64,000 nt of DNA from an uncultured Alphaproteobacteria bacterium (GTDB lineage: Bacteria > Pseudomonadota > Alphaproteobacteria > HIMB59 > GCA-002718135), in the NCBI GenBank assembly GCA_902572735.1, contig CACGGX010000005.1:10136-74135 (forward strand), read 5' to 3'. The position numbers and the translations under genes were made by a program. Of this stretch, positions 1 to 45,088 are shown in pieces; within the stretch, counting starts at the first letter, position 1; each line of letters starts with the position of its first letter. The notes under the pieces were generated by a model that searched no databases, was not told the origin of the DNA, and worked only from the letters and a program-made list of their open reading frames with translations.

Positions 1-2
1 CT

Positions 3-848: not shown

Positions 849-851
849 TTT

Positions 852-1952: not shown

Positions 1953-1956
1953 AAAA

Positions 1957-3932: not shown

Positions 3933-3964
3933 TTAATATTTATTTATAAACAAAATACTTTTAC

Positions 3965-4558: not shown

Positions 4559-4581
4559 TACTTCAGAGGTTTTTTTAAAAT

Positions 4582-5887: not shown

Positions 5888-5913
5888 TATTGCCCCTAAT
5901 ATAAGGGGCAATA
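5888..5913 (-). terminator. Rho-independent terminator of the minus-strand ABC operon (also closes convergent glpD)
   Basis: A 10-bp perfect stem tattgcccct/aggggcaata with a 6-nt loop. An A8 run on the plus side gives a T-run on the minus strand after the hairpin. Confidence 0.7.
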
Positions 5914-5928: not shown

Positions 5929-7035
5929 TTATTTAAATGCTTGTCCTGAACTATCAAATAATTGGCATCTTCCAGCAGGGAAACCAACTTTTACAGTATC
6001 ACCAACTTTAATTTCTGAATGTCCTTCAGTTTCAGCAACTAGAGGCTCTCCATCTTTTTCAAGGTATAGGTAAGTAACGTCACCGAGTTTTTCAACAACA
6101 AATACTTTACTCTCCCACGAACCATCTGAATCACCATTTACCACTAAGTGTTCAGGTCTAATACCTAAACTTACAGAATCACCCTCTGATGATGATGCAG
6201 ACATTTTAGGAATTGATATTTTTGACATTCCCATAATATCAACTTCCGTAGCATCAGAACTTTTGCTTAAGATCTTACTTGAGATAAAGTTCATTTTTGG
6301 CGATCCAATAAATCCACCTACAAACATATTATTTGGTTTATCATAAAGTTCTAGTGGAGATCCTTTTTGTGAAACGATACCTGTATCAAGAACAACAATA
6401 TCATCAGCAAGTGTCATTGCTTCTGTCTGATCGTGTGTAACATAGATCATTGTTGCTTCTAGTTCATTATGAAGTTTTGCTAACTCAACTCTCATTTGAA
6501 CCCTTAATGCAGCATCAAGGTTTGAAAGTGGTTCATCAAATAAGAAAACTTTTGGCTTTCTTGTAATTGCTCTTCCAATAGCAACACGTTGTCTTTGACC
6601 ACCTGAAAGTTGTTTTGGCTTTCTCTGAAGATAATCTTCTATTTGAAGAATTCTTGCTGCCTCATTAACTCTTTCATTAATCTCATCTTTTGATCTTTTT
6701 TCTAATTTTAAACCAAAAGCCATATTATCAAATACAGTCATGTGAGGGTATAATGCATAAGATTGAAACACCATTGCAATATTTCTTTGCTTTGGTGGTA
6801 AATCATTAACTACCTGACCATCAATTGAAATTGTACCTGAATTTATATCTTCAAGTCCTGCTATCATTCTTAACATAGTTGATTTACCACAACCACTAGG
6901 TCCGACTAGAACTGTGAACGATTGACTTTTGATGTCTAGAGATACGTCTTTGATTACATGGACGTCTCCAAAATATTTATTTACAGTATTTATATTTATA
7001 TCTGCCACTTCATCCTCCTTTGAGCGATTTTTCAA
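5929..7035 (-). CDS. CUT1 sugar ABC transporter ATP-binding protein (MalK/UgpC/MsiK type)
   Basis: Walker A GPSGCGKST, signature LSGGQRQRVA, Walker B FLFDEPLSNLD, plus a C-terminal TOBE-like regulatory domain. Confidence 0.9.
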   Translation of the reverse strand: MKNRSKEDEVADININTVNKYFGDVHVIKDVSLDIKSQSFTVLVGPSGCGKSTMLRMIAGLEDINSGTISIDGQVVNDLPPKQRNIAMVFQSYALYPHMTVFDNMAFGLKLEKRSKDEINERVNEAARILQIEDYLQRKPKQLSGGQRQRVAIGRAITRKPKVFLFDEPLSNLDAALRVQMRVELAKLHNELEATMIYVTHDQTEAMTLADDIVVLDTGIVSQKGSPLELYDKPNNMFVGGFIGSPKMNFISSKILSKSSDATEVDIMGMSKISIPKMSASSSEGDSVSLGIRPEHLVVNGDSDGSWESKVFVVEKLGDVTYLYLEKDGEPLVAETEGHSEIKVGDTVKVGFPAGRCQLFDSSGQAFK

Positions 7036-7099: not shown

Positions 7100-7963
7100 T
7101 TAACCTTTTATACTACCAGCTGTTAATCCAGACATAATTCTGCCTTGTAAAAGAAGGGTAATTATTACCAAAGGAACTGTAACTATAACTGAAGCGGCCA
7201 TAATACTTCCCCATGGCACCTCATACTCTATAGTCCCATTGATAAGAGCTATACCTACAGTAATTGTTCTATCACTATTAGTAGCTGTAAAGGTCAGGGC
7301 AAAAAGAAATTCATTCCACACTGCAATCATTGCCATAATTGCTGTAGTAAAGATTGCTGGGGTCATAATTGGGAGAAAAATTTTTCTTAAAATAAGAAAC
7401 GAAGATGCGCCATCTACAATTGCTGCCTCTTCAATTTCCTTAGGAACTCCTTTCATAAAAGTAGTTAATACCCATACGGTAAAAGGTATATTAAACATAG
7501 TATATGTAAAACATAACCATAAGAGAGAAGTTACACCCTTGACCCTTAGATCAAAAATATTAAAATAGAAATCTTTAAAATTTAAAAATAGCTGATACAT
7601 GCCTGTTAGAACAGCTATTTGCGGAAACATTGAAATAGCTAGAATTACAAATAAAAACATGCTTCTGCCTTTAAAATTTACTCTACTTAATGACCAAGCA
7701 GCAAAATAAGAAATTGTAATTGAGATTGAAACAGTAACAGTTGCAACAAATAATGAATTTAGAATTGTCTGAGGGAAATTATGCTCAAATAAAAGATAAT
7801 TATAATTTTTTGGATTTATTTCTGTAGGGAAGAAATTTGGTTCAAAAACTGCTGAACTTCCCTCTAATGATGTCATGACAGAATAATAAAATGGAAAAAC
7901 ACAAAATATAATTACTATCATTTGAAGACTGTATTTAAATATTTTATCGTAAACTTTATTCAT
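7100..7963 (-). CDS. CUT1 sugar ABC transporter permease (UgpE/MalG-like)
   Basis: Six-TM protein with EAA loop EIEEAAIVDGASSFLILRKIFLP. Confidence 0.9.
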   Translation of the reverse strand: MNKVYDKIFKYSLQMIVIIFCVFPFYYSVMTSLEGSSAVFEPNFFPTEINPKNYNYLLFEHNFPQTILNSLFVATVTVSISITISYFAAWSLSRVNFKGRSMFLFVILAISMFPQIAVLTGMYQLFLNFKDFYFNIFDLRVKGVTSLLWLCFTYTMFNIPFTVWVLTTFMKGVPKEIEEAAIVDGASSFLILRKIFLPIMTPAIFTTAIMAMIAVWNEFLFALTFTATNSDRTITVGIALINGTIEYEVPWGSIMAASVIVTVPLVIITLLLQGRIMSGLTAGSIKG

Positions 7964-8877
7964 TATTCCATTTCATCCAATTTATGTAATCTTGTTCTTT
8001 GTATAAATATAACTGCTATTACGCCTATAATTAGTGTCAACATTGTAGAGGCGGCTGCGCCAAATCCGAAATGAGAATATTCAAACATTTCTCTTCTTGC
8101 ATATACTGTCATCGACATAATATCTTTGCTGCCAGCATTAATTAAGTAGATTAAATCAAATACTCGTAATGCATCCAATCCTCTAAATACTATAGCAACT
8201 GCAATAGCAGGAAGTATTAAAGGAAGAATTATATAATAAAATTGTGTAATTCCATTAGTCCCATCAACTTTTCCTGCCTCTAATACTTCGTTTGGAAGTG
8301 CTTTTAGTCCAGCATAAACTAAAATTGCAACAAATGGAGATGTTTTCCATGCATCAATAATGATAATAACAATCATGGATGTCTGGGGATCAGTTGTCCA
8401 AGCTTTACCTTGCTCAATAATGCCCATTCCAATAAGAATATAATTAAATATACCAAACTGATCTTGCAACATCCATTCAAACATTCTTGCACTAACTATT
8501 GTTGGTATTGCCCACGGTATTAAAACTGCTGCTCTAACAAACCATTTTAATTTATTTTCAATTAGCATAATGAGTGCGAAGCTAATTCCTAATATAACTT
8601 CAAGACTTACAGAAAAAACACTAAAAACTATTGTGTTTCTTACAGAGTTCCAAAATAAACTGTCTGCGAGAACCCCGTACCACATACCCTCATAGTTTTC
8701 TAAATAGTTTATGAAGCCAACATAATTTGGATCTAGAAAATTTTCTAACTCTGCATCAGTAAGGCTTAAATAAAGCGTACTAATTAATGGATATAAAGCA
8801 GAAGATAATAATACTATTGTTACAGGTATTAAAAAAATAAATGCTGTTCTTTTTCTTAATTCACTAACTGATTTCAT
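7963..8877 (-). CDS. CUT1 sugar ABC transporter permease (UgpA/MalF-like)
   Basis: EAA loop EVLEAGKVDGTNGITQFYYIILP. Overlaps the next permease by 1 nt. Confidence 0.9.
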   Translation of the reverse strand: MKSVSELRKRTAFIFLIPVTIVLLSSALYPLISTLYLSLTDAELENFLDPNYVGFINYLENYEGMWYGVLADSLFWNSVRNTIVFSVFSVSLEVILGISFALIMLIENKLKWFVRAAVLIPWAIPTIVSARMFEWMLQDQFGIFNYILIGMGIIEQGKAWTTDPQTSMIVIIIIDAWKTSPFVAILVYAGLKALPNEVLEAGKVDGTNGITQFYYIILPLILPAIAVAIVFRGLDALRVFDLIYLINAGSKDIMSMTVYARREMFEYSHFGFGAAASTMLTLIIGVIAVIFIQRTRLHKLDEME

Positions 8878-8894: not shown

Positions 8895-8915
8895 AAGGGG
8901 ATATAAAATCCCCTT
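8895..8915 (-). other. Intra-operon stem-loop between the binding-protein and permease genes
   Basis: aaggggat-ataaa-atcccctt, an 8-bp perfect stem in the 56-nt spacer after the binding-protein gene. Confidence 0.55.
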
Positions 8916-8933: not shown

Positions 8934-10190
8934 CTACCAGCCTTTGCCTTTAATTTTTTTCAAAGCTTTTTCAAGCTCAGCAACAGCTGTAGTACCATCT
9001 TTTTTACCAGTAATAACTTCATGTGCAGCAGTATAAAATGCTACTGTTACTTGAGGCCATTTACCTGAAGTTTGTGCTGATGGTCTAGGTAATAGAGCTT
9101 GAGACGGACCCTTTAGAAGAGGTAAAAGAGTATACGTTTCAGCATGCTCTTTATTGTCATAAATCTCTATATATACTGGAGGCATCGAATATTCTGCAAT
9201 AGTTGCATGCTGTGCATCTCTATTTGATAGAAATTTAACTAGATCAATAGCAACTTCTTGTTTTTCAGAATATTTTGACACTGCGTAACCCCAGCCACCC
9301 ATAGTACTTGTAGATTTACCATTAGGTCCTCTAGGTAGTTGAACAACATCAAATTTACCTTTTACAGCTGACTCATCTTTATTACTTAAGCTCCATGCAT
9401 AAGGCCAATTTCTCATGAAAACAGCATTACCTTGGTCCCAGATACCTCTTGCATCTTCTTCTTTATAACCAATAACACCTTCTGGAGAAATAGTTCCTAC
9501 CCATTTAGCAGCCATATCTAAAGCTGCAGCAGCATTAGGATTGTTAATAGAGATTGTTCCATCTTTCTCAACAATCATTCCACCGCCATGACTTGCAACC
9601 CACTCTAATGCATCACATGTTAGACCTTCATAGGCATTACCTTGCCATACAAAACCCCACATTTTGTCATTGCCAGCAGCTCTCTCTTTATCTTGAATAA
9701 ATTGAGCTGTTTCAGTCATTTCATCCCAAGTTTCAGGAACATCTCTATTATATTTTTCTAATAGATCTGTTCTGTAATATAACATTGGTATACCTACACT
9801 ATAAGGTAAACCAATTATTTCACCTTTAGCTGTAGTATATGCTGAAAGAACATTAGGCATTATTTCTAATTGCTCATCTAAATATGGTTTCAGATCAATT
9901 AGCTGTGTTCCAAATTCTCCAGCCCATACATTATCAACTTTATATATATCAACATCACTATTTTGTGCTGATAGCCAAGTTTTATATTGTACATATTGAT
10001 CAGAAGTACTTGCAGGCATTTCTAAAAAATTAACTTTATGTCCTGTCTTTTTTTCCCATTCAGCTGTTAACTCCATTGTCATTTGACCCTGAGATCCACC
10101 ACCTTGAGCGAAGTTTAATTCTATCGCAGTAGCGTTTAATGAAAAAATTAAAGCTAACGAAGCAAAAAAGGATAATACTATATTTTTCAT
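8934..10190 (-). CDS. Periplasmic sugar-binding protein, ABC family 1 (CUT1)
   Basis: Has a signal peptide (MKNIVLSFFASLALIFSLNATA). Size and the W/Y-rich pattern (FVWQGNAYEGLTCDALEW) are typical of disaccharide/oligosaccharide binding proteins. Confidence 0.85.
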   Translation of the reverse strand: MKNIVLSFFASLALIFSLNATAIELNFAQGGGSQGQMTMELTAEWEKKTGHKVNFLEMPASTSDQYVQYKTWLSAQNSDVDIYKVDNVWAGEFGTQLIDLKPYLDEQLEIMPNVLSAYTTAKGEIIGLPYSVGIPMLYYRTDLLEKYNRDVPETWDEMTETAQFIQDKERAAGNDKMWGFVWQGNAYEGLTCDALEWVASHGGGMIVEKDGTISINNPNAAAALDMAAKWVGTISPEGVIGYKEEDARGIWDQGNAVFMRNWPYAWSLSNKDESAVKGKFDVVQLPRGPNGKSTSTMGGWGYAVSKYSEKQEVAIDLVKFLSNRDAQHATIAEYSMPPVYIEIYDNKEHAETYTLLPLLKGPSQALLPRPSAQTSGKWPQVTVAFYTAAHEVITGKKDGTTAVAELEKALKKIKGKGW

Positions 10191-10292
10191 AATGTTTTCC
10201 TCCTAAATTTGATATTTCAAATATAAAAAAACGGTAATTTCGAAATAAAAAATAATCAAGAAATAATTGTATAAATTTAACAAATTTACTAT

Positions 10293-11597
10293 TTAATCTT
10301 GACAGTTTATAATAATTTCCGGGTTTTCTGCGTTTTCTGGTGTTAATTGAATTTCTTTTGGCCATTTAAAATTCTTTTTTAATAATGGATCATTTGTGTT
10401 TTCCATAAATTTTTTTAGATTTTTATTCAGTTCTTTATAGCTTTTTAACTTTTTATAATCTTTAATTGGGTTTCTTTCCAATGGATCTAGAAATAAATCA
10501 AAAAATTCCTCTTTATTTTTTCTCATTTTTTTCAAACCATGTTTTAATAAAAAACTTTTGGATACACTTTCATCAATATTAGACAGATTTAGTTTTTTCC
10601 TATTATTTAATCTTTTTAACAATCTAAATCTTTTTGATCTTATACTTCTACAAGGCTCTACTGATGTATGAATATTAACTTCAGAATAAACAAATTTTCT
10701 TTTTTTTGTTTTATATTTTTTATTAGGCAGAATGTATGGGTTTAAATATTTTGGTTTTTTAATTTCTAAAATTTTACATATTGTTGGAAAAATATCTATA
10801 TTAGAAGTTAAATCATCATAGACAACACCGCCTTCAAATACATTTTTAAGATATGCTATAAGAAATATTCCAGTTCCATGATCGTTTAAATTACATTTCA
10901 TTCCTGGCCAAGCAATACCATGATCGGTCGTTAAAAGTATTAGCGTATTATTTAATTTTTTCTTTTCTTTGAGAGTATCATAAATTTTTCCTATACCTCT
11001 ATCTATTTTCTCTAAAGAAGAATAAAATTTTGCCATATCTTCTCTCATTTGTTTATTATCTAAAAAAAGCTCAGGCGGTCTAATCCAATTAGGATTAAAA
11101 TTTTCTGATATTTTTTTTACATACTCCCTATGAGTATCAAAATATCCTATTGAAATAAAAAATGGCTTTTTAGAGTTATATTTTTTAATCCACTTTGAAG
11201 CAGTTGAAGATATTTTGATTGAGTCAGTTGTAGTTGTACAAAATGTTTTATTATATCCAAGTTCATTTACTTTTTTTTTATCTATTTCATGTTGAATACC
11301 AAATAACGCTGTTTCAAAATCTTTATTTTTTAAATAATTTGATAAGTGTAGACTGTAATCATGTAATCTACTACCTCTATGAGCCAAACCATACATCCCA
11401 TTTTGATGAGGATATAAACCTGTCATTAACGAACTTCTGCTTGGCGAGCAAGTGGGTGCAGCAGTAAAAAAATTTCTATATACGCTACCCTTATTTGCTA
11501 TTTTTTGAATATTATTTGTTTTAGCGTTGTATCCATATGGAGAAATATATCTTCCAGTATCATGTGTATGTATTAAAACTATATTTATGTTCTTCAT
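10293..11597 (-). CDS. Cys-type sulfatase (formylglycine-dependent arylsulfatase family), no signal peptide
   Basis: Sulfatase signature APTCSPSRSSLMTGLYPHQNG (C-x-P-x-R). N-terminus is MKNINIVLIHTHDTG with no leader. LLTTDHG is also present. Confidence 0.85.
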   Translation of the reverse strand: MKNINIVLIHTHDTGRYISPYGYNAKTNNIQKIANKGSVYRNFFTAAPTCSPSRSSLMTGLYPHQNGMYGLAHRGSRLHDYSLHLSNYLKNKDFETALFGIQHEIDKKKVNELGYNKTFCTTTTDSIKISSTASKWIKKYNSKKPFFISIGYFDTHREYVKKISENFNPNWIRPPELFLDNKQMREDMAKFYSSLEKIDRGIGKIYDTLKEKKKLNNTLILLTTDHGIAWPGMKCNLNDHGTGIFLIAYLKNVFEGGVVYDDLTSNIDIFPTICKILEIKKPKYLNPYILPNKKYKTKKRKFVYSEVNIHTSVEPCRSIRSKRFRLLKRLNNRKKLNLSNIDESVSKSFLLKHGLKKMRKNKEEFFDLFLDPLERNPIKDYKKLKSYKELNKNLKKFMENTNDPLLKKNFKWPKEIQLTPENAENPEIIINCQD

Positions 11598-13093
11598 TTA
11601 ATAAAAAAGGGTGAGGTCCAACATATTTGATTATTTTTTTGCTTTATTTTTATATAAACATTATCATCTTTTTTTAATGGTAGTGTAATTTTTTTTTGAA
11701 AATTCCATTCTTTGAAGTTAGGAATTTTGTTAAATAAAATTGCCGGTGTATCTATTTCTCCTAAATTAAAAGAAACAGATCCTTTAAATAAATCTTTTGT
11801 TAAAATATCAAATTTTTTATTATTGGTTAAAGCTGTTATTTGCGAATTTTTTTTTAATTTTGCTAATATTGTAAATCCGCTTGTTTCATTAGTATAATTA
11901 TTACTATTTCCAGATGTTAAAAATTTAAATTTGATTTTATTTTTAAATTTTTTTACTTCTGGAATGAAAAAAGAATACTTACTTTTTTTATCTAAAGGAG
12001 AAACAATTTCTGGTCCTCTAAATTTATTTTCAATTGTAATTATATCAATATTTTTAAATAGAATTTCTCCTTTCCAAAGAAATTCTTTATTTCTTTCTCC
12101 CCAACCAAAATCTATATTTATAATTGATATATTTTTTTTATTTTTAATATTTTTTTGATCATTACAATTAAATCTTTTAAATAAACTTGTATTCTTTATT
12201 ATATCTATGTATTCTATTGGAAATCTACCTTCTACATTTATATCTAATAAATTACTTTTTTTAATCTTTACATCAGAGCCTAGAACTTTTTTATTTAAGT
12301 ATATATTTGGAATAATTTTATCACCAGTTAAAGCAAACGTTTTTCTTTCATTTATTGATTTAAATATCGAGTTTCTATTTTTTGATTTAACCAAAACACC
12401 AAATCTTCCATGGCCATAACTTCCAGGAGATGCGCTATGGTGATCAGTATTAGCAATAAATCCCAGTTTAATTTTATTCTCTAAAGCATATTTAATGGTA
12501 TTTTGATAATTTCTAGGACCCATTGAATGTAAAAAAGGATATTCCGCTTGATCATTTTCAGAACAACCATGCATAGAATATAGTTCAACAACTGGTGAAA
12601 CACCTTCTTCAAAAATGTCCCAGTTAACTCCTCGTCGTCCTTGTTTATAGGATAGGTGATGTGGCATAAAAATATAATTTTTTATTTTATTTTTTTTAAA
12701 TTTCTTTTTTAAAATATCAATTTGATCAACTAGCAGTTCATGTTTTTTTATATCCTTAAATACAATTGTTTGATCACCATATTTATTTGAATGCACTTCA
12801 TATCCTGGATATATAATAATTCCCTTTTCTTTTTTGATTGTTTCTAAAATTTTATTCCAATTTTTTTTGAGTTTTTTAAAACCAACTTTATGAAAATCAA
12901 TGATATGTTTTATTGAGGGGTCTTTAGTATTCATATCAGGCCAACCAGCATGACCTGTAATTGAAACAAAATCTAGGGATAATTTTGAAAATGCAATTGC
13001 TCTTTCTAAACTACCATGAGCATAAGAGATATTACAATGATTATGTAAATCACCAAAAAGAATTAATTCAGTATTTTTTGATTTTGTTTTCAA
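11594..13093 (-). CDS. PHP-fold (polymerase/histidinol-phosphatase-like) metal-dependent hydrolase with a beta-rich C-terminal domain
   Basis: N-terminal GDLHNHCNISYAHG. Later His clusters are ITGHAGW, MPHHLSY, SMHGCSE and NTDHHS. A 4-nt ATGA overlap couples it to the sulfatase gene. Confidence 0.6.
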   Translation of the reverse strand: MKTKSKNTELILFGDLHNHCNISYAHGSLERAIAFSKLSLDFVSITGHAGWPDMNTKDPSIKHIIDFHKVGFKKLKKNWNKILETIKKEKGIIIYPGYEVHSNKYGDQTIVFKDIKKHELLVDQIDILKKKFKKNKIKNYIFMPHHLSYKQGRRGVNWDIFEEGVSPVVELYSMHGCSENDQAEYPFLHSMGPRNYQNTIKYALENKIKLGFIANTDHHSASPGSYGHGRFGVLVKSKNRNSIFKSINERKTFALTGDKIIPNIYLNKKVLGSDVKIKKSNLLDINVEGRFPIEYIDIIKNTSLFKRFNCNDQKNIKNKKNISIINIDFGWGERNKEFLWKGEILFKNIDIITIENKFRGPEIVSPLDKKSKYSFFIPEVKKFKNKIKFKFLTSGNSNNYTNETSGFTILAKLKKNSQITALTNNKKFDILTKDLFKGSVSFNLGEIDTPAILFNKIPNFKEWNFQKKITLPLKKDDNVYIKIKQKNNQICWTSPFFIK

Positions 13094-14276
13094 TTAATCT
13101 TCCTTTTTTTGCTATCGATTTATTTATCATATCTATTATTTTTAAAGATTTGATCCCATTTTCAGCTGAAACTTCTGATTTCCCTTTTTTTAAATAGTTT
13201 ATATAACTTTTCAGTAATTTTATATCTGCACCATAATGTGATGTATTATGATAATTATCTTTCGCATCAATACGTTTAAATTTTTTTCCATTATCATATG
13301 TTATTTCAATTATACCTGTTGATCTGATAAGTTTTAATTTACCTTTTATGCCAATAACTTCTAGTGTTTCTTGATCTTCAGCTGCTGGACCAAAACAGGA
13401 AAAATTTATATTTCCAATTACCTCATTTTCAAAATTAATATTACAAGAAAAATGAGAAAGAATATCACTTCCCTCAGCCCACACACAATGATCGTCTATT
13501 TGTCTTTCATCATTTAATGATGAATAATTATTTTTAAATTTTTTTAAGTTTTCTCTCGAATCACCCAATGCTTCATATCTTCGATAGTTACATTTTTCAA
13601 AACAATCTTTACATCTTATATTTTTATTTTTTTTTGAGGTAAAATGTGAATGTCTACTTCCAAAACTTGAAAGAGATACAACTTCTGAATTTGAAAACCA
13701 TCTTAAAACATCAACATGATGAGAACACTTATCATTTATGCCACCACCAGAGAACTTATTGTACCTATGCCAAGTCTGAAAATATCTTGTATAGGGTACG
13801 ATAGAATTAAGTTGAACTAAATACACATCTCCAATTAGTTTTTTATTGTAAATTAAATCCCAAGCTTTAATCCATGAAGTTTCATATCTTCTAGTAAATG
13901 ACATTAAAAATTGAAATTTGTTTCTTTTTTCAAGCTCAACAATTTCTTTAGCATGTTTTAAACTTACAGATATTGGCTTATCTAAAATAGATTTAATTTT
14001 TTTTTCTGCTGCAAGTTTTGCATGTTTGTAATGTTGGTCTGTATGAGAAGTAATTATTAAACCATCCAATTTTTCATTATTAACTAAACTCTTTGCATTT
14101 TTATAAATATTTATTTTATTATCATTAATTTTTTTTTTTACTTCGTTGCTTTTTTCTTCAATTAAATCACACAAAGCGACTATCTTTAATTTTTTTTTGA
14201 AATACTTATTAATAAGAAAAGAAAGGCTTGCGCCCCTTACTCCAACACCAATTATACCAATCTTAAATGACATCAT
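13068..14276 (-). CDS. Gfo/Idh/MocA-family NAD(P)-dependent oxidoreductase with a Cys-rich insertion
   Basis: Rossmann N-terminus FKIGIIGVGVRGAS and the DKP motif. Insertion is RCKDCFEKCNYRR (CxxCxxxC). Confidence 0.75.
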   Translation of the reverse strand: MMSFKIGIIGVGVRGASLSFLINKYFKKKLKIVALCDLIEEKSNEVKKKINDNKINIYKNAKSLVNNEKLDGLIITSHTDQHYKHAKLAAEKKIKSILDKPISVSLKHAKEIVELEKRNKFQFLMSFTRRYETSWIKAWDLIYNKKLIGDVYLVQLNSIVPYTRYFQTWHRYNKFSGGGINDKCSHHVDVLRWFSNSEVVSLSSFGSRHSHFTSKKNKNIRCKDCFEKCNYRRYEALGDSRENLKKFKNNYSSLNDERQIDDHCVWAEGSDILSHFSCNINFENEVIGNINFSCFGPAAEDQETLEVIGIKGKLKLIRSTGIIEITYDNGKKFKRIDAKDNYHNTSHYGADIKLLKSYINYLKKGKSEVSAENGIKSLKIIDMINKSIAKKGRLIENKIKKY

Positions 14277-14324
14277 TTTTTATAAACTCAAAAAAAAAAT
14301 GAATAAATAAAAAAGTAAAAAAAA

Positions 14325-15323
14325 TTATATATTTGGTACTTTTTTTTGAATAAAATAATTATTATCTTTATGTTGTTTTATTATTGCAGGAATTATTTCT
14401 TTATAAGCATCATATAAGCTAGTGTTAGCTTTAGGTAGCTGATCTTTTATTAAATTACTCAGTTTTGGTAAATTGTAAGAGGGTACAGATGGGAACATAT
14501 GATGTTCAACATGATATTCCATATGCCAATACAAAAAGCTAAATATAGGATTAAATCGTACTGATCTTGTTGTGTATCTATGATCCTTTATATCTTCTGG
14601 AAGTCCTAAATGCTGAGTCATGTTAAATATATTAATGATGTTACCCCAGTATCTTGGGAAGAAAATTAATAGTGCCGGAAGAGGATTCATTAGATAGAAA
14701 GATAAAGCAAAAGATGAAACCCATAATAATACATGTATTCTAGAAATGAGTCGACATTTTGCTATTTCATTTTGAGGTATACAATCTCTCATTACAGGAG
14801 TCGTAAATCCTAAAGCATGTTTAATGATTTCGTACTTAAATGAATGTTTAAAATATATTAACTCGTAAAATGGGATAAAGCTAAATAGAAAACTTCTTAA
14901 ACTTGGATATTGATGGAACAAAGCAGCTTCGAAATCATGAGGATCACTCACTGAGGATGTATTACTATGATGTCTGAAATGACTCCAAGTCCATCTTGTG
15001 GGCTCAAAGTCAGTCATAAAAGAACCAATTTGGTAAAAAATTTCATTTAAATACTTCGACTTAAATGCTGTTCTATGACCACACTCATGCCAAATTGGAT
15101 TACTAGAATAAAAAAGAATACCATAAAGCCATAGCCACAAGACTACCCACCAAGTCCCCCATGTCATTACTGACATGTAACCAAAGAAAAATAAAAGAAT
15201 GAAATATAGAGTTACGTGTCGTAAACCTTTTAAATCACTTTTTTTTGATAATTGTTTTAAATCTTTTTTACTTATTTCAGCCCTAAACCATTTGTCATCA
15301 ACATTATCTAATTTTTCTACCAT
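14325..15323 (-). CDS. Membrane di-iron 'fatty acid desaturase'-family protein (paralog 1)
   Basis: Three His boxes, HECGHR, HFRHH and HVEHHMFP, with TM segments between them. Confidence 0.8.
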   Translation of the reverse strand: MVEKLDNVDDKWFRAEISKKDLKQLSKKSDLKGLRHVTLYFILLFFFGYMSVMTWGTWWVVLWLWLYGILFYSSNPIWHECGHRTAFKSKYLNEIFYQIGSFMTDFEPTRWTWSHFRHHSNTSSVSDPHDFEAALFHQYPSLRSFLFSFIPFYELIYFKHSFKYEIIKHALGFTTPVMRDCIPQNEIAKCRLISRIHVLLWVSSFALSFYLMNPLPALLIFFPRYWGNIINIFNMTQHLGLPEDIKDHRYTTRSVRFNPIFSFLYWHMEYHVEHHMFPSVPSYNLPKLSNLIKDQLPKANTSLYDAYKEIIPAIIKQHKDNNYFIQKKVPNI

Positions 15324-15483
15324 ATCTACTTATACAATTAATATGAGAATATTTTAATACAAAAATTAGCTATTTTTTGTCACAATTAAGAAATTAAATA
15401 AAAATAAAATTTCTAGATTTAATATCAAATTTCCAAATTTATTGATTTTTTTTTCTTTTTAGATACGATATTCAAAAATCATT

Positions 15484-16203
15484 ATGAAAATAGATAAAAC
15501 ACAATTTGAACAAAATGGATACCTCGTTTTACCAAACATTGTTCCTAAGTCGACTTTAATTAAACTTAATAAAAACGCAGATCAAATGATAAAGGATTTT
15601 AAAAAAAGAATTAATAGAGAGCAATCAAATAATAATAGAAAAAAATTTGGCGATATTAGTCAAAATGGAAAAATTTTTTTTGCTAATCAATGCGAATACT
15701 ATTCTCATATAAACGCTTACGCTAAAGGTAAATTTATTAGAAAAATTGCCTCAAAACTTTTAGGTAATAAAATTTATTTGTTTAATGAACAGTTAGTAAA
15801 TAAAAATCCTAATACTCCTAGTTCATTTAGTTGGCATCAAGATTCAGGTTATATTCATTTCAAACATAAACCATATATATCTATTTGGCTTGCTCTGACA
15901 GATACTACAGAAAAAAATGGAGCATTAAGTATTATCCCAATAAACTTAAAAAAAATCAAGAATGCGAAGACACATATATGGCAAAACAAATCAAAAGATT
16001 TAGGAATCAAAGTTAATGATAAAAAAGCTGTTCAACTTTGTGTTAGTGCCGGAACATTAGTAATTTTTTCAAGTCTAACACCTCATTCCTCTGGGGCAAA
16101 TATTACTAAAAAAAATCGTAAAGCTTATTTATCTCAATATTCATCAGAGCATATTATAGATCCTTTTAATGGAATTCAAAGAGGTCGAGCATATTTAATG
16201 TAG
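15484..16203 (+). CDS. Phytanoyl-CoA dioxygenase (PhyH)-family Fe(II)/2-oxoglutarate oxygenase
   Basis: FEQNGYLVLPNIV start, WHQDSGY (HxD facial-triad region) and the distal LTPHSSGAN. Confidence 0.7.
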   Translation: MKIDKTQFEQNGYLVLPNIVPKSTLIKLNKNADQMIKDFKKRINREQSNNNRKKFGDISQNGKIFFANQCEYYSHINAYAKGKFIRKIASKLLGNKIYLFNEQLVNKNPNTPSSFSWHQDSGYIHFKHKPYISIWLALTDTTEKNGALSIIPINLKKIKNAKTHIWQNKSKDLGIKVNDKKAVQLCVSAGTLVIFSSLTPHSSGANITKKNRKAYLSQYSSEHIIDPFNGIQRGRAYLM

Positions 16204-16274: not shown

Positions 16275-17345
16275 TTAATTAATATCAATCCAATGACCCA
16301 ATTCACTACTTTCATAACATTTATCAAGTATATTTTGAATTTCAGCACCTCGATCAAAATCGGGTTCATGATTTGTATTGCTTTCAATAGATTCAATAAA
16401 TCTTTCAAAATTAGTAGGTGAAGGAGGGCAGTTAATTTCCTCCCATTTTAATTTATCTTTCTTACTTGAAAATTCTCGTTCAGTATCATTAGTAAACATA
16501 AATTTATTACCCTCATTAATAGGATCGTCAAATTCAATTTTAACGGCACCTTTATCCCCAAATATTCTTAGCTCTAATCTATTTGAATAACCAGTTGCAA
16601 ATCTAGTTGCATTAATAGTGCCGATTGCACCATTATCAAATTCTACCATAGATAGAAAAGTATCATTTGCATCTAATATATAATCTTTAATTTTTTCTCC
16701 CTTTGAATGAAAGGTTTTTAGAAAAGAATTCAGTTTTTTGATCTTTCCAATCGGCCGAGAAGCAAAATCAAATATATGAACACCAATATCACCTAATGTA
16801 CCTTTGCTGCCATGATTTGTGGATAATCTCCAAAGCCATTTATCTTGTTCTTTCCAATTGCCCCAGTAGTTTGATGTTAGCCAAGATTGATTATAATTAG
16901 CATCCATATGCATAATATTACCAATTTTACCTTCTTTAACCATCTTGCAAAGTTCTTGATATCCAGATGAATTACGATAACTAAAGTTGACCATGTTAAT
17001 AAGGTTTTTACCTTTAAGTGCATCACACATTAATTTAGCATCAGCATAATTTTCAGCTAGTGGTTTCTCACAAAAAATATGTTTATTTTTTTCTATTGCT
17101 TTAATTGATATTTCTTTATGAAAAGCATCAGGTGTTGTGTTCGAAATTGCATCTACATCTGATTGTTCTAAAAGTTCATCGACACTATTATATCTATGAT
17201 CAATATTAAATTTATCACAAAACTCATTTAATCTATCATTATTTACATCACATGCCGCAACAACATCTGAATTTTTATTATCTTTAAAAGCACTTGCATG
17301 CCATTCAGCTATTCCACCTGTACCAACAATGCCAACTTTAATCAT
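16275..17345 (-). CDS. Gfo/Idh/MocA-family oxidoreductase (ThuB-like)
   Basis: MIKVGIVGTGGIAEWH Rossmann motif and the CEKPLA motif. A 4-nt overlap couples it to the ThuA-like gene. Confidence 0.8.
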   Translation of the reverse strand: MIKVGIVGTGGIAEWHASAFKDNKNSDVVAACDVNNDRLNEFCDKFNIDHRYNSVDELLEQSDVDAISNTTPDAFHKEISIKAIEKNKHIFCEKPLAENYADAKLMCDALKGKNLINMVNFSYRNSSGYQELCKMVKEGKIGNIMHMDANYNQSWLTSNYWGNWKEQDKWLWRLSTNHGSKGTLGDIGVHIFDFASRPIGKIKKLNSFLKTFHSKGEKIKDYILDANDTFLSMVEFDNGAIGTINATRFATGYSNRLELRIFGDKGAVKIEFDDPINEGNKFMFTNDTEREFSSKKDKLKWEEINCPPSPTNFERFIESIESNTNHEPDFDRGAEIQNILDKCYESSELGHWIDIN

Positions 17346-18127
17346 TTTTTATAATTATGATCTACTTGATATCCTTTTACCTCAATTGGCTCAACTGGTG
17401 TTTTTCTCTCCATATTGTCTATACCCTTAGCAATTCTATCAATCCAAATCCCGGATGTTTTTTCAGGACAAACCCAATGAACAGAATTTTTTATTACCCT
17501 TTGAACATCTTTATTATAATAAACAGGGTATGACTCGTGACCTGGTCTAAAATAAAATATTTTACCATTACCTCTTTTATAACAAAGGCCTGATCTAAAA
17601 ACTTCACCACCTTCAAACCAACTTACAAATACTGTTTCATCTGGTGCTGGAACTTGAAAAGGTTCTCCATACATCTCAGTCATATCAATTTCAAAATATT
17701 CTCCCAAACCCTCGGCAATAGGGTGGCCTGGGTTACAAACCCAAACTCTTTCCTTTTCTCCTCTTTCTGCCCATCTAATGTTTGCAGTTGTACCCATCAT
17801 TCTTTTAAATATTTTTGAATGATGACCAGAGTGAAGTACCAAAAGTCCCATTCCCTCTAAAACTCTTTGTTGTATCCGATCTACAATTTTATCTTCTACA
17901 AGATTATGAGCTTTGTGACCCCACCACATTAAAACATCAGTTTTGTCTAATAGTTCTTCACTTAACCCGTGATCTTTTTCTTCCAAAGTTGCTGTTGAAA
18001 TATTCAAACTTTTATCGTCAGATAAAAAATCTTTAATACAACCATGAATACCTTTTGGATAAATTGATTTTACATGTTCATCTTCTTGCTCGTGTACAAA
18101 TTCATTCCAAATTACTAAATTGAGCAT
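17342..18127 (-). CDS. ThuA-domain protein (trehalose-utilisation-like, class-I amidotransferase-like fold)
   Basis: About 260 aa. Pattern VIWNEFVHE...DVLMWWGH.AH..V...LLVLHSGH.SK is typical of ThuA. Confidence 0.65.
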   Translation of the reverse strand: MLNLVIWNEFVHEQEDEHVKSIYPKGIHGCIKDFLSDDKSLNISTATLEEKDHGLSEELLDKTDVLMWWGHKAHNLVEDKIVDRIQQRVLEGMGLLVLHSGHHSKIFKRMMGTTANIRWAERGEKERVWVCNPGHPIAEGLGEYFEIDMTEMYGEPFQVPAPDETVFVSWFEGGEVFRSGLCYKRGNGKIFYFRPGHESYPVYYNKDVQRVIKNSVHWVCPEKTSGIWIDRIAKGIDNMERKTPVEPIEVKGYQVDHNYKK

Positions 18128-18128
18128 G

Positions 18129-19103
18129 CTACCTTACCCTTCCGCCATGAAATCTATGTCCTAAAATTGCTAATATAATTATTAATCCGTTAAAGAATTG
18201 TCTCCATACTCCGCTCATACCCATAGCCACAACACCAACTTCCATATAAGCTATAACTCCAACTCCAAAAACAGCCCCAACTATAGTTCCAACACCACCC
18301 CAAGTAGGTGTACCTCCAATAAACACTGCAGCCAGAGCAAGTAATAAGTAGCCAAATCCTTGAGTTGGCCACCAAGTAAAATTAATTAAACAAGAAAATA
18401 TTCCTGCAAGCGCCGCACCTAATCCAACATACATAAACGCGCTAATTCTTACCCAGTTAACATTAATTCCCATTTGTGCTGCTGAGTCTGGATTGTCTCC
18501 TACATGATGAATATGAATTCCAAAAACGTGTTTTCTGTAAAGATAATAGGAAAAAATTGTAAACAACGCAGCCCAGTACACTTGCATTGGAACACCGAAA
18601 AGTTTTCCAACTAATACATCGTAGATCCAGTGATCAGAAATTTCCATAAAAGAAATTGATTTACTATCACTAGCTACAAACAAAAAACCTCTTATAAAAA
18701 ATAATGCTCCAAGAGAAGCAACCAAAGATGAAAGGCGTCCGTAAACAACCAAGCATCCCATTAGTATGCCAACTACTGCTCCAGAAAGTATTCCTATAAG
18801 AATACATAATAATGGATCAAGTCCTGCTTTTAATAAAAGAGCAAAAATGTATGCTGACAATCCAAAAGTAGATGCAAAAGACAAGTCTATTTCTCCTGCA
18901 GTAACTAAAAAAACAAGAGGTATAACCATAAACATAATTACTGGAAGCATTACAAAAACAGATTGATGTAAATTTGGTCTCATCATTACTTCTGGAGCTC
19001 CAATTAGGAAAACCAACATTAAAATTATAAAGTAACCTAAGCTTCCTAATGCTCTTCCATTTTTTCCAATTAAATTTTTAAATGTATTTTCTTTGGTACT
19101 CAT
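18129..19103 (-). CDS. CUT2 (ribose-type) sugar ABC transporter permease
   Basis: A 324-aa polytopic protein with RbsC/branched-chain type topology. Confidence 0.85.
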   Translation of the reverse strand: MSTKENTFKNLIGKNGRALGSLGYFIILMLVFLIGAPEVMMRPNLHQSVFVMLPVIMFMVIPLVFLVTAGEIDLSFASTFGLSAYIFALLLKAGLDPLLCILIGILSGAVVGILMGCLVVYGRLSSLVASLGALFFIRGFLFVASDSKSISFMEISDHWIYDVLVGKLFGVPMQVYWAALFTIFSYYLYRKHVFGIHIHHVGDNPDSAAQMGINVNWVRISAFMYVGLGAALAGIFSCLINFTWWPTQGFGYLLLALAAVFIGGTPTWGGVGTIVGAVFGVGVIAYMEVGVVAMGMSGVWRQFFNGLIIILAILGHRFHGGRVR

Positions 19104-19849
19104 TAATGTTTACTCACTGCATCTTTCATAACTTTCATAAGTGCTTCAGGACCCTCAATATCATTTTTATTTAATTGATGAACTACTTCACCTCTGTCTA
19201 AAACAATAAATCTATCAGAAATATCATAGACATGATAAATATTATGACCAATAAATAAAACTGATCTTCCAGATTTTTTAACATTATCTACAAAGTCAAA
19301 AACTTTTTGAGTCTCAATGAGTGAAAGGGCTGTTGTTGGCTCATCCAATACAATTAATTCTGCATTGTTATATATTGCTCTTGCTATTGCTACTCCTTGT
19401 CTTTCACCACCCGATAAATTACCAACAGGTGATTCAGCATCAATTAGTTTTGATGTAAATCCAATTTCTCTAATTAATTTGTTTGCTTCTCTTACTTGTT
19501 CTTTTTCTCTTATAAAACCAAATCTATGTTTTAATTCTTTGCCCATAAAAATATTCCACACTATCGATTGCTGTGGACATAAGGCTCTGTCTTGGAAAAC
19601 AGTTTCTATTCCAGCCTCTCTGGCTTTTGAGGCATTCCAATTTTTAACTTCATTTCCTCTAATTATAATTTGTCCATCATCCGGAGCATGAACACCAACT
19701 AACGTTTTGATTAAGGTGGATTTACCAGCTCCATTATCTCCAATAAGTCCAACAACTTCTCCAACATCAACTTTTATTGATGCTTTTTTTAATGCTGTTA
19801 TTCCGCCAAAACTTTTGGAAACATTTTTAAGTTCTATTATTGCGCTCAT
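19103..19849 (-). CDS. Sugar ABC transporter ATP-binding protein, single-cassette (half-size for CUT2)
   Basis: Walker A GDNGAGKST, signature LSGGERQGVA, Walker B LDEPTTAL. Only one nucleotide-binding domain in 248 aa. Confidence 0.9.
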   Translation of the reverse strand: MSAIIELKNVSKSFGGITALKKASIKVDVGEVVGLIGDNGAGKSTLIKTLVGVHAPDDGQIIIRGNEVKNWNASKAREAGIETVFQDRALCPQQSIVWNIFMGKELKHRFGFIREKEQVREANKLIREIGFTSKLIDAESPVGNLSGGERQGVAIARAIYNNAELIVLDEPTTALSLIETQKVFDFVDNVKKSGRSVLFIGHNIYHVYDISDRFIVLDRGEVVHQLNKNDIEGPEALMKVMKDAVSKH

Positions 19850-19855
19850 ATATGT

Positions 19856-19882
19856 AGCTGATCTACTTACAGTAGATCAGCT
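19856..19882 (-). other. Intra-operon stem-loop after the binding-protein gene
   Basis: agctgatctact-tac-agtagatcagct, a 12-bp perfect stem in the 46-nt spacer. Confidence 0.6.
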
Positions 19883-19895
19883 CTGTTTGATATAT

Positions 19896-20885: not shown

Positions 20886-20947
20886 TATTCCTCCCTTGAA
20901 TAAATATAATGTAAGTGAACTTAAAAAATTAAATTAGTAATGTCAAC

Positions 20948-43670: not shown

Positions 43671-43686
43671 CTTATTATAATAAGTT
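43669..43686. promoter_or_regulatory. Candidate GntR/HutC operator O2: the same palindrome extended to 18 bp (AACTTATTATAATAAGTT)
   Basis: Overlaps the regulator's stop codon and lies 59 nt upstream of the binding-protein ATG. Confidence 0.6.
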
Positions 43687-45073: not shown

Positions 45074-45088
45074 TTCCAATTTATTTTC

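What the first reader, a model, noticed from the sequence alone, without database searches (positions are those of the whole stretch)
10293..15323. Leaderless Cys-type sulfatase coupled to a PHP-fold hydrolase, a Cys-rich Gfo/Idh/MocA enzyme and a desaturase-like protein, upstream of a sugar ABC importer
Five minus-strand genes run head to tail into the CUT1 operon (8934..10190 onward). The sulfatase and PHP genes overlap by 4 nt, and the PHP and oxidoreductase genes overlap by 26 nt. The sulfatase has the full C-x-P-x-R signature (CSPSRSSLMTG) but starts MKNINIVLIHTHDTG with no signal peptide. That implies cytoplasmic desulfation of an imported sulfated sugar or similar small molecule. Formylglycine sulfatases need a maturase (FGE or a radical-SAM anSME), and none is encoded in this 64-kb window. 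The partner 499-aa protein combines a PHP-type His-cluster domain (GDLHNH..., MPHH, NTDHH) with a ~220-aa beta-rich C-terminal region that I cannot assign. If the host is SAR11-like, as I infer, sulfatases are, as far as I recall, uncommon in such streamlined genomes. I am not aware of this gene combination as a described pathway.
Basis: partly seen in the sequence, partly recalled or inferred. Interest (0 to 1): 0.7.

Follow-up and report, generated by a model that had tools for sequence, protein, structure and literature searches.

The report
SAR11 sulfated-sugar uptake and breakdown cassette
A SAR11 ocean bacterium carries a seven-gene unit, also found in many other bacteria, that most likely imports a sulfated sugar and breaks it down inside the cell; two of its conserved enzymes have never been characterised.

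Summary
On the minus strand, a 402-aa Gfo/Idh/MocA oxidoreductase, a 499-aa PHP-fold metallohydrolase and a 434-aa leaderless Cys-type sulfatase are translationally coupled (26-nt and 4-nt overlaps). They run into a CUT1 sugar ABC importer that ends at a terminator hairpin. The host is Pelagibacteraceae (SAR11). No FGE or radical-SAM maturase is encoded in the 64 kb.

New here: this is not a SAR11 oddity. The same gene set recurs in several gene orders in marine Rhizobiales and Rhodobacterales, Sphingomonadales, Spirochaetota and Verrucomicrobiota. That set is the PHP-like protein, a GFO with four invariant cysteines, a leaderless S1 sulfatase and a CUT1 importer. Of 51 loci with full flanks, 42 have a sulfatase within 10 kb of the PHP gene. 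The desaturase and PhyH genes are SAR11-specific additions, not part of the core.

The sulfatase is closest to S1_8 sugar 2-O-sulfatases. The binding protein is closest to disaccharide alpha-glycoside binders. The GFO model is closest to NAD-dependent sulfoquinovosidases.

The best reading is cytoplasmic catabolism of an imported sulfated glycoside. The substrate and the roles of the PHP and GFO proteins are inferred, not shown. I found no paper describing this cassette.

The parts
13068..14276 (-). Gfo/Idh/MocA NAD-dependent oxidoreductase (402 aa) with an inserted C222-x2-C225-x3-C229...C264 four-cysteine motif
   Evidence: Pfam GFO_IDH_MocA N- and C-terminal domains. The four Cys are invariant, as are K100, D182 and H186, in 46 orthologues. 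Model pLDDT 91. Foldseek top hits are the NAD-dependent sulfoquinovosidases 8qc2/8qc3.
11594..13093 (-). PHP-fold metallohydrolase (499 aa). The N-terminal ~260 aa form a His-rich barrel and the C-terminal ~240 aa are beta-sandwich. It is a distant DUF3604 relative.
   Evidence: No Pfam hit; weak NCBIfam CehA/McbA match, 4e-6. Invariant D15, H17, H19, H48, E99, H101, H145, H146, H175, D217, H218, H219. Model pLDDT 87.8. Foldseek hits 2anu TM0559 and 3e38 BVU_3505. TTG start with a ribosome-binding site, overlapping the GFO gene by 26 nt.
10293..11597 (-). Leaderless Cys-type S1 (formylglycine) sulfatase, 434 aa, S1_8-like
   Evidence: PF00884 at 6e-31. Best solved relatives are the S1_8A galactose-2-sulfate sulfatase 9bb9 (4e-31) and SGSH. 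CSPSR motif. Family alignment A3. ATGA overlap with the PHP gene.
8934..10190 (-). CUT1 periplasmic solute-binding protein with a signal peptide
   Evidence: SBP_bac_1. E = 1e-101 to the Thermus alpha-glycoside/maltose-binding protein 6J9W, then MalE3, TMBP and SmoF. 390-460 bits to the binding proteins of the Rhizobiales and Rhodobacterales cassettes.
8895..8915 (-). Palindromic hairpin between the binding-protein and permease genes (possible attenuator or mRNA stabiliser)
   Evidence: Terminator-like scan, 8 pairs. Pattern match only.
7963..8877 (-). ABC permease 1
   Evidence: BPD_transp_1; orthologous to the cassette permeases.
7100..7963 (-). ABC permease 2
   Evidence: BPD_transp_1.
5929..7035 (-). 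MalK-type ABC ATPase
   Evidence: ABC_tran, OB_MalK and TOBE_2 domains.
5888..5913 (-). Terminator-like hairpin (10 pairs plus a T run) closing the unit
   Evidence: Pattern match only.
14325..15323 (-). Membrane FA_desaturase-family di-iron protein. It is adjacent and co-directional, 48 nt upstream of the GFO gene, but is not part of the conserved cassette.
   Evidence: PF00487. Absent from L010 and from all non-SAR11 cassettes. Paralogue at 22431-23441, 51% identical.

Best explanation
The region is a seven-gene catabolic cassette for a small sulfated glycoside, probably a disaccharide-sized alpha-glycoside carrying an O-sulfate.

Proposed steps:
1. The CUT1 ABC system binds the compound in the periplasm and imports it. 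The system comprises the binding protein, two permeases and a MalK-type ATPase.
2. In the cytoplasm, the leaderless S1_8-like sulfatase removes the sulfate ester. This requires its Cys50 to be converted to formylglycine by a maturase encoded elsewhere in the genome.
3. The translationally coupled pair of four-cysteine GFO oxidoreductase and PHP-fold metallohydrolase processes the sugar. The GFO oxidises a sugar hydroxyl with NAD+, as in glycoside 3-dehydrogenases and NAD-dependent sulfoquinovosidases. The PHP enzyme then hydrolyses or eliminates on the activated product, for example a keto-glycoside, a lactone or a remaining ester.

Shown: the gene set, the coupling, the absence of leader peptides, the folds, the conserved catalytic residues and the conservation of the gene set across phyla. 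Inferred: the substrate class, the order of steps and the chemistry of the GFO and PHP proteins.

The neighbouring desaturase and PhyH genes are not part of the unit.
For: - Operon anatomy: 26-nt and 4-nt overlaps, a 102-nt gap with AGGAGG before the binding-protein gene, and a terminator only after the ATPase gene.
- Conservation: 564 relatives of the PHP protein were found in GTDB species genomes. In the 51 loci with at least 8 kb on both sides, 42 have a sulfatase within 10 kb, 39 have a related CUT1 binding protein, 33 have an adjacent four-Cys GFO and 25 have all three.
- The same parts occur in different orders in Martelella, Pelagisphaera, Sinorhizobium RAC02 and Devosia and a Spirochaeta MAG.
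- Every cassette sulfatase in the Alphaproteobacteria starts directly at the first strand, so all are cytoplasmic, and all are Cys-type.
- Binding protein: E = 1e-101 to an alpha-glycoside disaccharide binder.
- GFO: K100, D182 and H186 are kept, many arginines are invariant (R129, R130, R164, R171, R318), and its best structural matches are NAD-dependent sulfoquinovosidases.
- A 62%-identical sulfatase homologue sits next to a GH4 NAD-dependent glycosidase.
- GFO-PHP-transporter sets also exist without a nearby sulfatase (L026, L075, L088). This fits enzymes that act on the imported compound.
Against: - Nothing was assayed and no expression data were available.
- The PHP protein has no characterised relative. 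Its only structural matches are structural-genomics proteins of unknown function.
- The margin by which sulfoquinovosidases lead other GFO folds is small (TM 0.83-0.86 against 0.78-0.84).
- The sulfatase lacks the canonical Lys of the GKxH motif; its whole subfamily has GxQH instead.
- The SAR11 sulfatase is only about 25% identical to the Rhizobiales cassette sulfatases. The sulfatase component has therefore been exchanged during evolution rather than co-inherited.
- No glycoside hydrolase of a classical family and no sugar kinase lies in the SAR11 unit.
- No maturase was found.
Confidence: 0.6

Rival explanations
1. The PHP-fold protein is itself a formylglycine-independent, metal-dependent sulfatase or sugar-ester hydrolase. 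It removes a second sulfate (or another ester) from a doubly modified sugar, working beside the S1 sulfatase.
For: The parts mix and match. The 435-aa sulfatase family pairs with a ~501-aa sulfatase in Actibacterium and Paenibacillus. That ~501-aa sulfatase is 51% identical to the one that pairs with the PHP protein in Sinorhizobium. In SAR11 the PHP protein pairs with the 435-aa family. The PHP gene therefore occupies the slot that a second sulfatase holds elsewhere. PHP enzymes carry a trinuclear metal site built for phosphate-ester hydrolysis (family knowledge), and sulfate esters have the same geometry. All the ligand residues are invariant.
Against: No PHP-family sulfatase is known. The tight coupling to an NAD-dependent oxidoreductase is not explained by this reading. 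GFO-PHP pairs also occur without any sulfatase nearby.
Confidence: 0.15
2. The GFO and PHP proteins are a new maturation system that converts Cys50 of the sulfatase to formylglycine. This would explain why no FGE or anSME is seen.
For: No maturase is encoded in the window. The linked alphaproteobacterial sulfatases are all leaderless and Cys-type. The GFO carries an invariant four-Cys, possibly redox-active, metal site. The association holds with three different sulfatase subfamilies.
Against: GFO-PHP sets occur with transporters but with no sulfatase within about 10 kb (L026, L075, L088). In about 35 loci the transporter genes lie between GFO-PHP and the sulfatase gene, as expected for a substrate pathway. 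The Pelagisphaera locus has a radical-SAM gene of its own. The GFO keeps a sugar-dehydrogenase active site. A 64-kb window cannot show that a maturase is absent from the genome.
Confidence: 0.07
3. The 'sulfatase' is not a sulfatase. It would be an alkaline-phosphatase-superfamily phosphonate or phosphate monoester hydrolase, or an inactive relic, and the cluster would handle a non-sulfated sugar.
For: The canonical Lys of the GKxH motif is missing. There is a weak secondary Pfam hit to Phosphodiest, 4e-14.
Against: The protein aligns over its full length to active S1_8 sulfatases. HxHD, CSPSR, H156-R157 (THR), D225-H226 (TDHG) and K234 are invariant across a large family (numbering as in alignment A3) that is under clear constraint. 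GxQH is a trait of the whole family, not decay. The 90%-identity cluster has 313 members, close to the 366 of the ClpA cluster.
Confidence: 0.08
4. The cluster scavenges sulfur by releasing sulfate for assimilation, rather than supplying carbon.
For: Many bacterial sulfatases are induced by sulfate starvation (own knowledge).
Against: Seawater holds about 28 mM sulfate, and cultured SAR11 lack assimilatory sulfate reduction (own knowledge). The cassette carries sugar-processing enzymes and, in Martelella, a PfkB sugar kinase.
Confidence: 0.03

Closest known systems
SulfAtlas S1_8 sulfatases (for example S1_8A galactose-2-sulfate 2-O-sulfohydrolase of Pseudoalteromonas distincta, PDB 9bb9; human SGSH)
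   Same: Same fold, with an alignment over residues 5-404. It shares the Cys-x-Pro-x-Arg formylglycine motif and the metal and sulfate ligands, and it is similar in size. The nearest solved enzyme also acts on a free sugar rather than a polymer.
   Different: Only about 25-28% identical (estimated from the alignment). It is leaderless and so cytoplasmic, whereas the PUL enzymes are secreted. The GKxH lysine is replaced (GxQH) and the DD pair reads HD. SulfAtlas subfamily membership was not tested.
NAD+-dependent sulfoquinovosidases (SqgA, the prototypes of a new GH family proposed in PMC10755693) and GH109/GH4 redox glycosidases
   Same: These are the best structural matches of the GFO model. 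Equivalent Lys, Tyr, acid-x3-His and a C-terminal His can be proposed. Arginines occupy the loop that binds the anionic group in SqgA. A GH4 gene lies beside a 62% homologue of the sulfatase.
   Different: 16% identity. The GFO has a 45-aa insert with four invariant cysteines that SqgA lacks. It is always paired with a PHP-fold protein, which SqgA does not need. Sulfoquinovose is a sulfonate, not a sulfate ester.
Trehalose/alpha-glucoside uptake and 3-keto pathway (thuEFGK-thuAB of Sinorhizobium; Thermus alpha-glycoside-binding protein 6J9W)
   Same: The importer is of the same CUT1 type, and the binding protein matches 6J9W at 1e-101. A GFO oxidoreductase acts on the imported sugar. ThuA- and ThuB-like genes lie directly upstream at 16275-18127.
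   Different: The cassette adds a sulfatase and a PHP-fold enzyme and has no ThuA. The ThuA/ThuB-like genes belong to a separate CUT2 transporter unit.
PHP-family metal-dependent phosphoesterases (TM0559, BVU_3505, histidinol phosphatase, YcdX) and Pfam DUF3604
   Same: It has the (beta/alpha)7 barrel with HxH, H, E, H, H and DxH ligands. The two-domain layout resembles BVU_3505.
   Different: No Pfam PHP or DUF3604 hit at E <= 0.01 for the window protein. A profile search against PDB sequences finds only TM0559, at E = 0.03. No relative has a known substrate.

Membership tests
S1 formylglycine-dependent sulfatases (Pfam PF00884) | Sulfatase domain above the curated threshold | tested here: met
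   108 bits against a cut-off of 25.
S1 formylglycine-dependent sulfatases (Pfam PF00884) | C/S-x-P/A-x-R signature at the N-terminal end of the first helix | tested here: met
   C50-S-P-S-R54, invariant in the family.
S1 formylglycine-dependent sulfatases (Pfam PF00884) | Full canonical set of active-site residues (Asp-Asp, Arg, Lys-x-His, His, Asp-His/Asn, Lys) | tested here: inconclusive
   D13, R54, H103, H156, D225-H226 and K234 are present (numbering as in alignment A3). The first Asp is His12, and the Lys of GKxH is Ile/Gln. Both changes are invariant across the whole 435-aa subfamily.
S1 formylglycine-dependent sulfatases (Pfam PF00884) | Cys converted to formylglycine; sulfate-ester hydrolysis | not testable with these tools
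   Needs mass spectrometry and an enzyme assay. No maturase is encoded in the window.
SulfAtlas subfamily S1_8 | Placement within the S1_8 clade by the SulfAtlas HMM or tree | tested here: inconclusive
   The top solved hits are S1_8A (4e-31), SGSH (2e-23) and S1_8B (1e-16), ahead of S1_19 and the other solved sulfatases listed. JGI labels homologues N-sulfoglucosamine sulfohydrolase. No SulfAtlas model was available.
PHP superfamily | Distorted (beta/alpha)7 barrel with HxH...H...E...H...H...DxH metal ligands | tested here: met
   H17, H19, H48, E99, H145/H146, H175, D217 and H219 are invariant. Foldseek probability is 1.00 to 2anu and 3e38.
Pfam DUF3604 (PF12228) | Match above the gathering score | tested here: not met
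   No hit for the window protein at E <= 0.01. Homologues carry only faint or weak hits.
Gfo/Idh/MocA oxidoreductases | N-terminal Rossmann domain plus C-terminal alpha/beta domain, an EKP-type Lys and a D/E-x3-H motif | tested here: met
   PF01408, PF02894 and PF22725. G10-x-G12-x-R-G15, D99-K100-P101 and D182...H186 are invariant.
NAD-dependent sulfoquinovosidases (SqgA family) | Sequence membership, and glycosidase rather than dehydrogenase chemistry | not tested
   Only fold similarity was obtained: E = 3e-26, 16% identity. It is treated as 'works like', not 'is a member'.
CUT1 carbohydrate ABC importers | SBP_bac_1 binding protein, two BPD_transp_1 permeases and a MalK-type ATPase with a TOBE domain | tested here: met

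The most novel reading that the evidence does not exclude
The four-cysteine GFO and the PHP-fold protein form a previously unrecognised two-enzyme module, widespread across bacterial phyla, that carries out a new reaction on sulfated sugars. That reaction would be either metal-dependent, formylglycine-independent desulfation or de-esterification, or an oxidation-assisted cleavage in which the PHP enzyme plays the part of the lyase or hydrolase. It would give SAR11 and many marine Alphaproteobacteria access to a pool of small sulfated carbohydrates that is not currently counted among their substrates.
Probability: 0.3. Interest if true: 0.8.

Novelty: new variant of a known kind. Interest (0 to 1): 0.62.

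Why it matters
SAR11 is the most abundant heterotroph in the ocean and is usually described as living on small, simple molecules. Sulfatases are not part of its textbook repertoire. A cytoplasmic sulfatase wired to a disaccharide-type importer points to small sulfated glycosides from algae as a SAR11 carbon source. The sulfatase cluster holds 313 metagenomic sequences at 90% identity, close to the 366 of a housekeeping ClpA cluster.

The same cassette in dozens of marine Rhizobiales and Rhodobacterales, Spirochaetes and Verrucomicrobia shows that two conserved enzyme families lack any known function: a PHP-like metallohydrolase and a four-cysteine GFO. It also gives them a clear context, which makes them directly testable. 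Finally, it raises a concrete question about how cytoplasmic Cys-type sulfatases are matured in streamlined genomes.

Tried and rejected
- Sequence searches of the PHP protein against PDB, as a single sequence and as a profile, gave nothing beyond TM0559 at E = 0.03.
- Pfam scans of longer, possibly fused relatives (P0222, 1327 aa; P0333; P0220) showed no informative extra domain.
- Literature searches found no description of the cassette. The terms were DUF3604; sulfatase with PHP domain, oxidoreductase and ABC transporter; cytoplasmic sulfatase; and sulfotrehalose. The marine sulfoquinovosidase paper mentions neither SAR11 nor sulfatases.
- The sigma-70 promoter scan was uninformative: 69 sites against 77 expected.
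- Rfam found only two tRNAs, with no riboswitch near the unit.
- The maturase search by motif and by Pfam over all ORFs was negative.
- I considered the desaturase as a member of the pathway and rejected it on synteny.
- I considered recent horizontal transfer because of the GC dip to 25% over 10-16 kb. I rejected it as the main explanation. The four enzymes are Lys/Asn/Ile-rich, as in an old AT-rich resident, and their closest relatives outside SAR11-like marine sequences are only 37-45% identical.
- Trehalose-2-sulfate was considered as a specific substrate. It fits a trehalose/maltose-type binder, an S1_8 2-O-sulfatase and the thuAB-like neighbours. Nothing places it in seawater, so it stays a candidate only.
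- I could not check the geometry of the four cysteines because model coordinates are not returned.

Full report
**Observation**

| Gene | Coordinates | Length |
|---|---|---|
| Sulfatase | 10293-11597 | 434 aa |
| His-rich (PHP-like) protein | 11594-13093 | 499 aa, TTG start |
| Gfo/Idh/MocA (GFO) protein | 13068-14276 | 402 aa |
| FA_desaturase-family protein | 14325-15323 | 332 aa |

Downstream lie a CUT1 binding protein (8934-10190), two permeases (7963-8877 and 7100-7963) and a MalK-type ATPase (5929-7035). The stated interval therefore holds four genes, not five.

The 4-nt ATGA overlap between the PHP and sulfatase genes is real. So is the 26-nt overlap between the GFO and PHP genes; the PHP TTG start is preceded by AAGGAAGA. 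A 102-nt spacer with AGGAGG precedes the binding-protein gene. The only strong terminator-like hairpin follows the ATPase gene at 5913-5888, and a smaller palindrome sits after the binding-protein gene.

The sulfatase ORF is already maximal and starts four residues before its first strand, so it cannot carry a leader. The GFO and PHP proteins are leaderless too, whereas the binding protein has a typical signal peptide.

**Host**

The exact proteins are on record from an 82.8-kb NCBI contig. Members of their 90%-identity clusters are named Pelagibacteraceae. Seven GTDB species-level SAGs or MAGs of the GORG 'AG-' series carry the same syntenic block at 84-95% identity.

The sulfatase cluster has 313 members, close to the 366 of the ClpA cluster from the same window. 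The cassette is therefore common in this SAR11 population. A 2025 SAR11 pangenome paper mentions sulfatases next to a TRAP transporter in flexible regions, so sulfatases are rare in SAR11 but not unheard of.

**The sulfatase**

Pfam Sulfatase scores 6e-31. The best solved relatives are S1_8A of Pseudoalteromonas distincta (9bb9, 4e-31, aligned over residues 5-404), human SGSH (S1_8) and S1_8B. [quoted passage not shown]

A database search shows a large family of proteins of about 435 aa, mostly leaderless, at 38-45% identity. They occur in Rhodobacteraceae, Paenibacillus, Alicyclobacillus, Halanaerobium, Lentisphaerae and others, and JGI labels many of them N-sulfoglucosamine sulfohydrolase.

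Within that family HxHD, CSPSR, LAHRG, GxQH, THR, TDHG and a Lys are invariant. The absence of the textbook Lys of GKxH is thus a family trait, not decay.

**The PHP-like protein**

It has no Pfam hit and only a weak NCBIfam CehA/McbA metallohydrolase match. An alignment with 43 homologues shows an invariant PHP ligand set: H17, H19, H48, E99, H145/H146, H175, D217 and H219.

The AlphaFold model is confident (pLDDT 87.8, pTM 0.91). It has an alpha/beta N-terminal half and an all-beta C-terminal half of about 240 aa. Foldseek finds only uncharacterised PHP proteins (TM0559 and the two-domain BVU_3505) and EndoQ. Sequence and profile searches of PDB find essentially nothing.

The family is moderate in size: 139 clusters at 50% identity with E < 1e-30. 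Homologues carry at most faint DUF3604 hits.

**The GFO protein**

It has standard N- and C-terminal GFO domains, and the catalytic Lys (DKP) and D182-x3-H186 are kept. A 45-aa insert carries C222-x2-C225-x3-C229 and C264, which are invariant in 46 orthologues from Alphaproteobacteria, Verrucomicrobiota, Planctomycetota and Bacteriovoracaceae.

The model is confident (pLDDT 91). Its best structural matches are the NAD-dependent sulfoquinovosidases SqgA (8qc2, 8qc3, 8qc5, 8zn9; E about 1e-25, TM 0.83-0.86). These lead inositol dehydrogenases and other GFO enzymes by only a small margin.

SqgA uses Lys107, Tyr136, Glu189/His193 and His321, and binds the sulfonate with Arg166 and Lys172. The window protein has invariant K100, Y131, D182/H186, H347, R164 and R171 at comparable spacings. 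This is a lead, not a test.

**Conservation of the gene set**

This is the main new result.

- Neighbourhoods with precomputed Pfam annotation show the same parts in other lineages:
  - Martelella: GntR, GFO, PHP, SBP, two permeases, ATPase, PfkB, sulfatase.
  - Pelagisphaera: GFO overlapping PHP, with several sulfatases nearby.
  - Sinorhizobium RAC02: GntR, PHP, SBP, two permeases, sulfatase, ATPase.
  - Devosia: PHP beside sulfatase, permeases and SBP.
  - A Spirochaeta MAG: GFO, LacI, sulfatase, PHP, SBP, permeases.
  - Limihaloglobus: PHP between sulfatases and a PL8 lyase.
- A scan of GTDB species genomes found 564 relatives, of which 80 loci were kept. My phmmer and jackhmmer maps of these loci give the following for the 51 loci with at least 8 kb on both sides:

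| Feature near the PHP gene | Loci (of 51) |
|---|---|
| Sulfatase within 10 kb | 42 |
| Related CUT1 binding protein | 39 |
| Adjacent four-Cys GFO | 33 |
| All three | 25 |
| None | 4 |

- About 35 marine Rhizobiales and Rhodobacterales loci share the order GFO-PHP-SBP-permease-permease-ATPase-(PfkB)-sulfatase.
- Their binding proteins score 390-460 bits against the window's, so the transporter is orthologous.
- Their sulfatases are all leaderless and Cys-type, with an SGSH-like GIIGKVHVGP motif, but are only about 25% identical to the SAR11 sulfatase. The sulfatase slot has been refilled during evolution while the module persisted.

**What does not belong**

L010, the 84%-identity SAR11 relative, goes directly from the ThuB-like gene to the GFO gene, with no PhyH or desaturase between them. 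No non-SAR11 cassette has these two genes either. The desaturase also has a 51%-identical paralogue at 22431-23441. It is a neighbour that may be co-transcribed, not a pathway member.

**Maturase**

No ORF of 120 aa or more in the window has an FGE-sulfatase or Radical_SAM domain. No ORF of 80 aa or more has a CxxxCxxC or GNVWEW-type motif. From established knowledge, E. coli matures Cys-type sulfatases without FGE by an unidentified route, so absence here is an open point and not a contradiction.

**Mechanism**

The importer's binding protein is closest to the Thermus alpha-glycoside/maltose binder 6J9W (1e-101). MalE3 and the trehalose/maltose binder TMBP follow, with the sulfoquinovosyl-glycerol binder SmoF at 4e-39. 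Taken with a cytoplasmic S1_8-like sulfatase, this points to a small sulfated glycoside that is taken up intact and desulfated inside the cell.

The translationally coupled GFO-PHP pair most likely acts in sequence on the sugar. First comes NAD-dependent oxidation, as in glycoside 3-dehydrogenases or SqgA-type redox glycosidases. A metal-dependent hydrolysis or elimination would follow. The alternative of a sugar 1-dehydrogenase plus lactonase is not excluded.

Two observations support the link to redox glycosidases. A 62%-identical sulfatase homologue lies next to a GH4 NAD-dependent glycosidase. GFO-PHP-transporter sets also occur without a sulfatase, which argues that the pair works on the imported molecule and not on the sulfatase.

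**Rivals**

- *PHP as a second, formylglycine-independent sulfatase or esterase.* In Actibacterium and Paenibacillus the 435-aa sulfatase family pairs with a ~501-aa sulfatase. That sulfatase is 51% identical to the one paired with the PHP protein in Sinorhizobium. The PHP gene thus sits where a second sulfatase sits elsewhere, which keeps this idea alive at about 0.15.
- *GFO-PHP as a new maturase.* This is less likely, about 0.07, for the reasons given above.
- *Pseudo-sulfatase or phosphonate-type enzyme* (about 0.08) and *sulfur scavenging* (about 0.03) are both unlikely.

**Novelty and verdict**

Each protein belongs to a known superfamily, and cytoplasmic handling of sulfated sugars is a known kind of process. 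I found no description in the searchable literature of the conserved module itself: a four-Cys GFO, a PHP-like hydrolase, a leaderless sulfatase and a CUT1 importer. Two of its families have no characterised member.

I rate it a new variant of a known kind, with interest about 0.6. Substrate and chemistry remain inferred.

Noticed in passing
window 22431-23441 (-) and 14325-15323 (-): There are two FA_desaturase-family membrane proteins, 51% identical, about 7 kb apart. The 90%-identity cluster of the one at 14325-15323 has 2919 members, so the family is very common in SAR11. Its substrate is unknown; there are weak NCBIfam matches to hydroxylases such as GntB and CrtR.
   Followed up: partly
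window 15484-16203 (+): A PhyH-family Fe/2-oxoglutarate dioxygenase is transcribed divergently from the desaturase. Both genes are absent from the SAR11 relative L010, so they behave as an inserted pair.
   Followed up: partly
window 16275-22384 (-): A second sugar unit lies directly upstream: a ThuB-like GFO (with a levoglucosan/inositol dehydrogenase-like match), ThuA, a CUT2-type ABC transporter (permease, ATPase, Peripla_BP_4) and an aldehyde dehydrogenase. It looks like a 3-keto-sugar pathway.
   Followed up: no
window 42981-53374 (+): This block holds a GntR regulator, a further CUT1 binding protein with two permeases, then two paralogous ~720-aa ADP-ribosylglycohydrolase-family proteins (one with a GH59-type C-terminal lectin domain), an aldo/keto reductase and an MFS transporter. 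It is an unusual, uncharacterised sugar-related cluster.
   Followed up: no
window 10001-16000: GC falls to about 25% over the four enzyme genes, against 30-34% in the flanking transporter genes. The enzymes are very Lys/Asn/Ile-rich.
   Followed up: partly
window 8895-8915: A perfect 8-bp-stem palindrome lies between the binding-protein and permease genes and matches the terminator pattern on both strands. It may set the binding-protein to permease expression ratio.
   Followed up: no
L090 6486-9290 and L092 6489-9308: In Actibacterium mucosum and Paenibacillus allorhizosphaerae, the closest named-organism relatives of the window sulfatase (45% and 42% identity) sit directly after a ~501-aa leaderless 'FDSLNRH...CMPARRD' sulfatase and next to a CUT1 binding protein. 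That ~501-aa sulfatase is 51% identical to the one paired with the PHP protein in Sinorhizobium RAC02 (L086).
   Followed up: partly
L091 8001-10824: A 62%-identical marine homologue of the sulfatase is followed by a 47-aa GFO fragment and a GH4 NAD/Mn-dependent glycosidase.
   Followed up: no
L088 994-5451: A Bacteriovoracaceae MAG has the four-Cys GFO and the PHP protein behind a sodium/solute symporter, with no sulfatase in the part of the contig read (about 7.5 kb downstream). A ferredoxin-reductase-type gene lies upstream.
   Followed up: no
P0222 (protein): This 1327-aa protein carries the PHP-like module at residues 826-1324. Its first ~825 residues have no Pfam match. It may be an informative fusion.
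   Followed up: partly
window 1-5733: Next to the cassette's 3' end lie a GMC oxidoreductase C-terminal fragment, an enolase-superfamily (MR_MLE) sugar-acid dehydratase-like gene, two HAD phosphatases, a PEMT/ICMT-type methyltransferase and a GlpD-like FAD oxidoreductase. Any link to the cassette is unknown.
   Followed up: no
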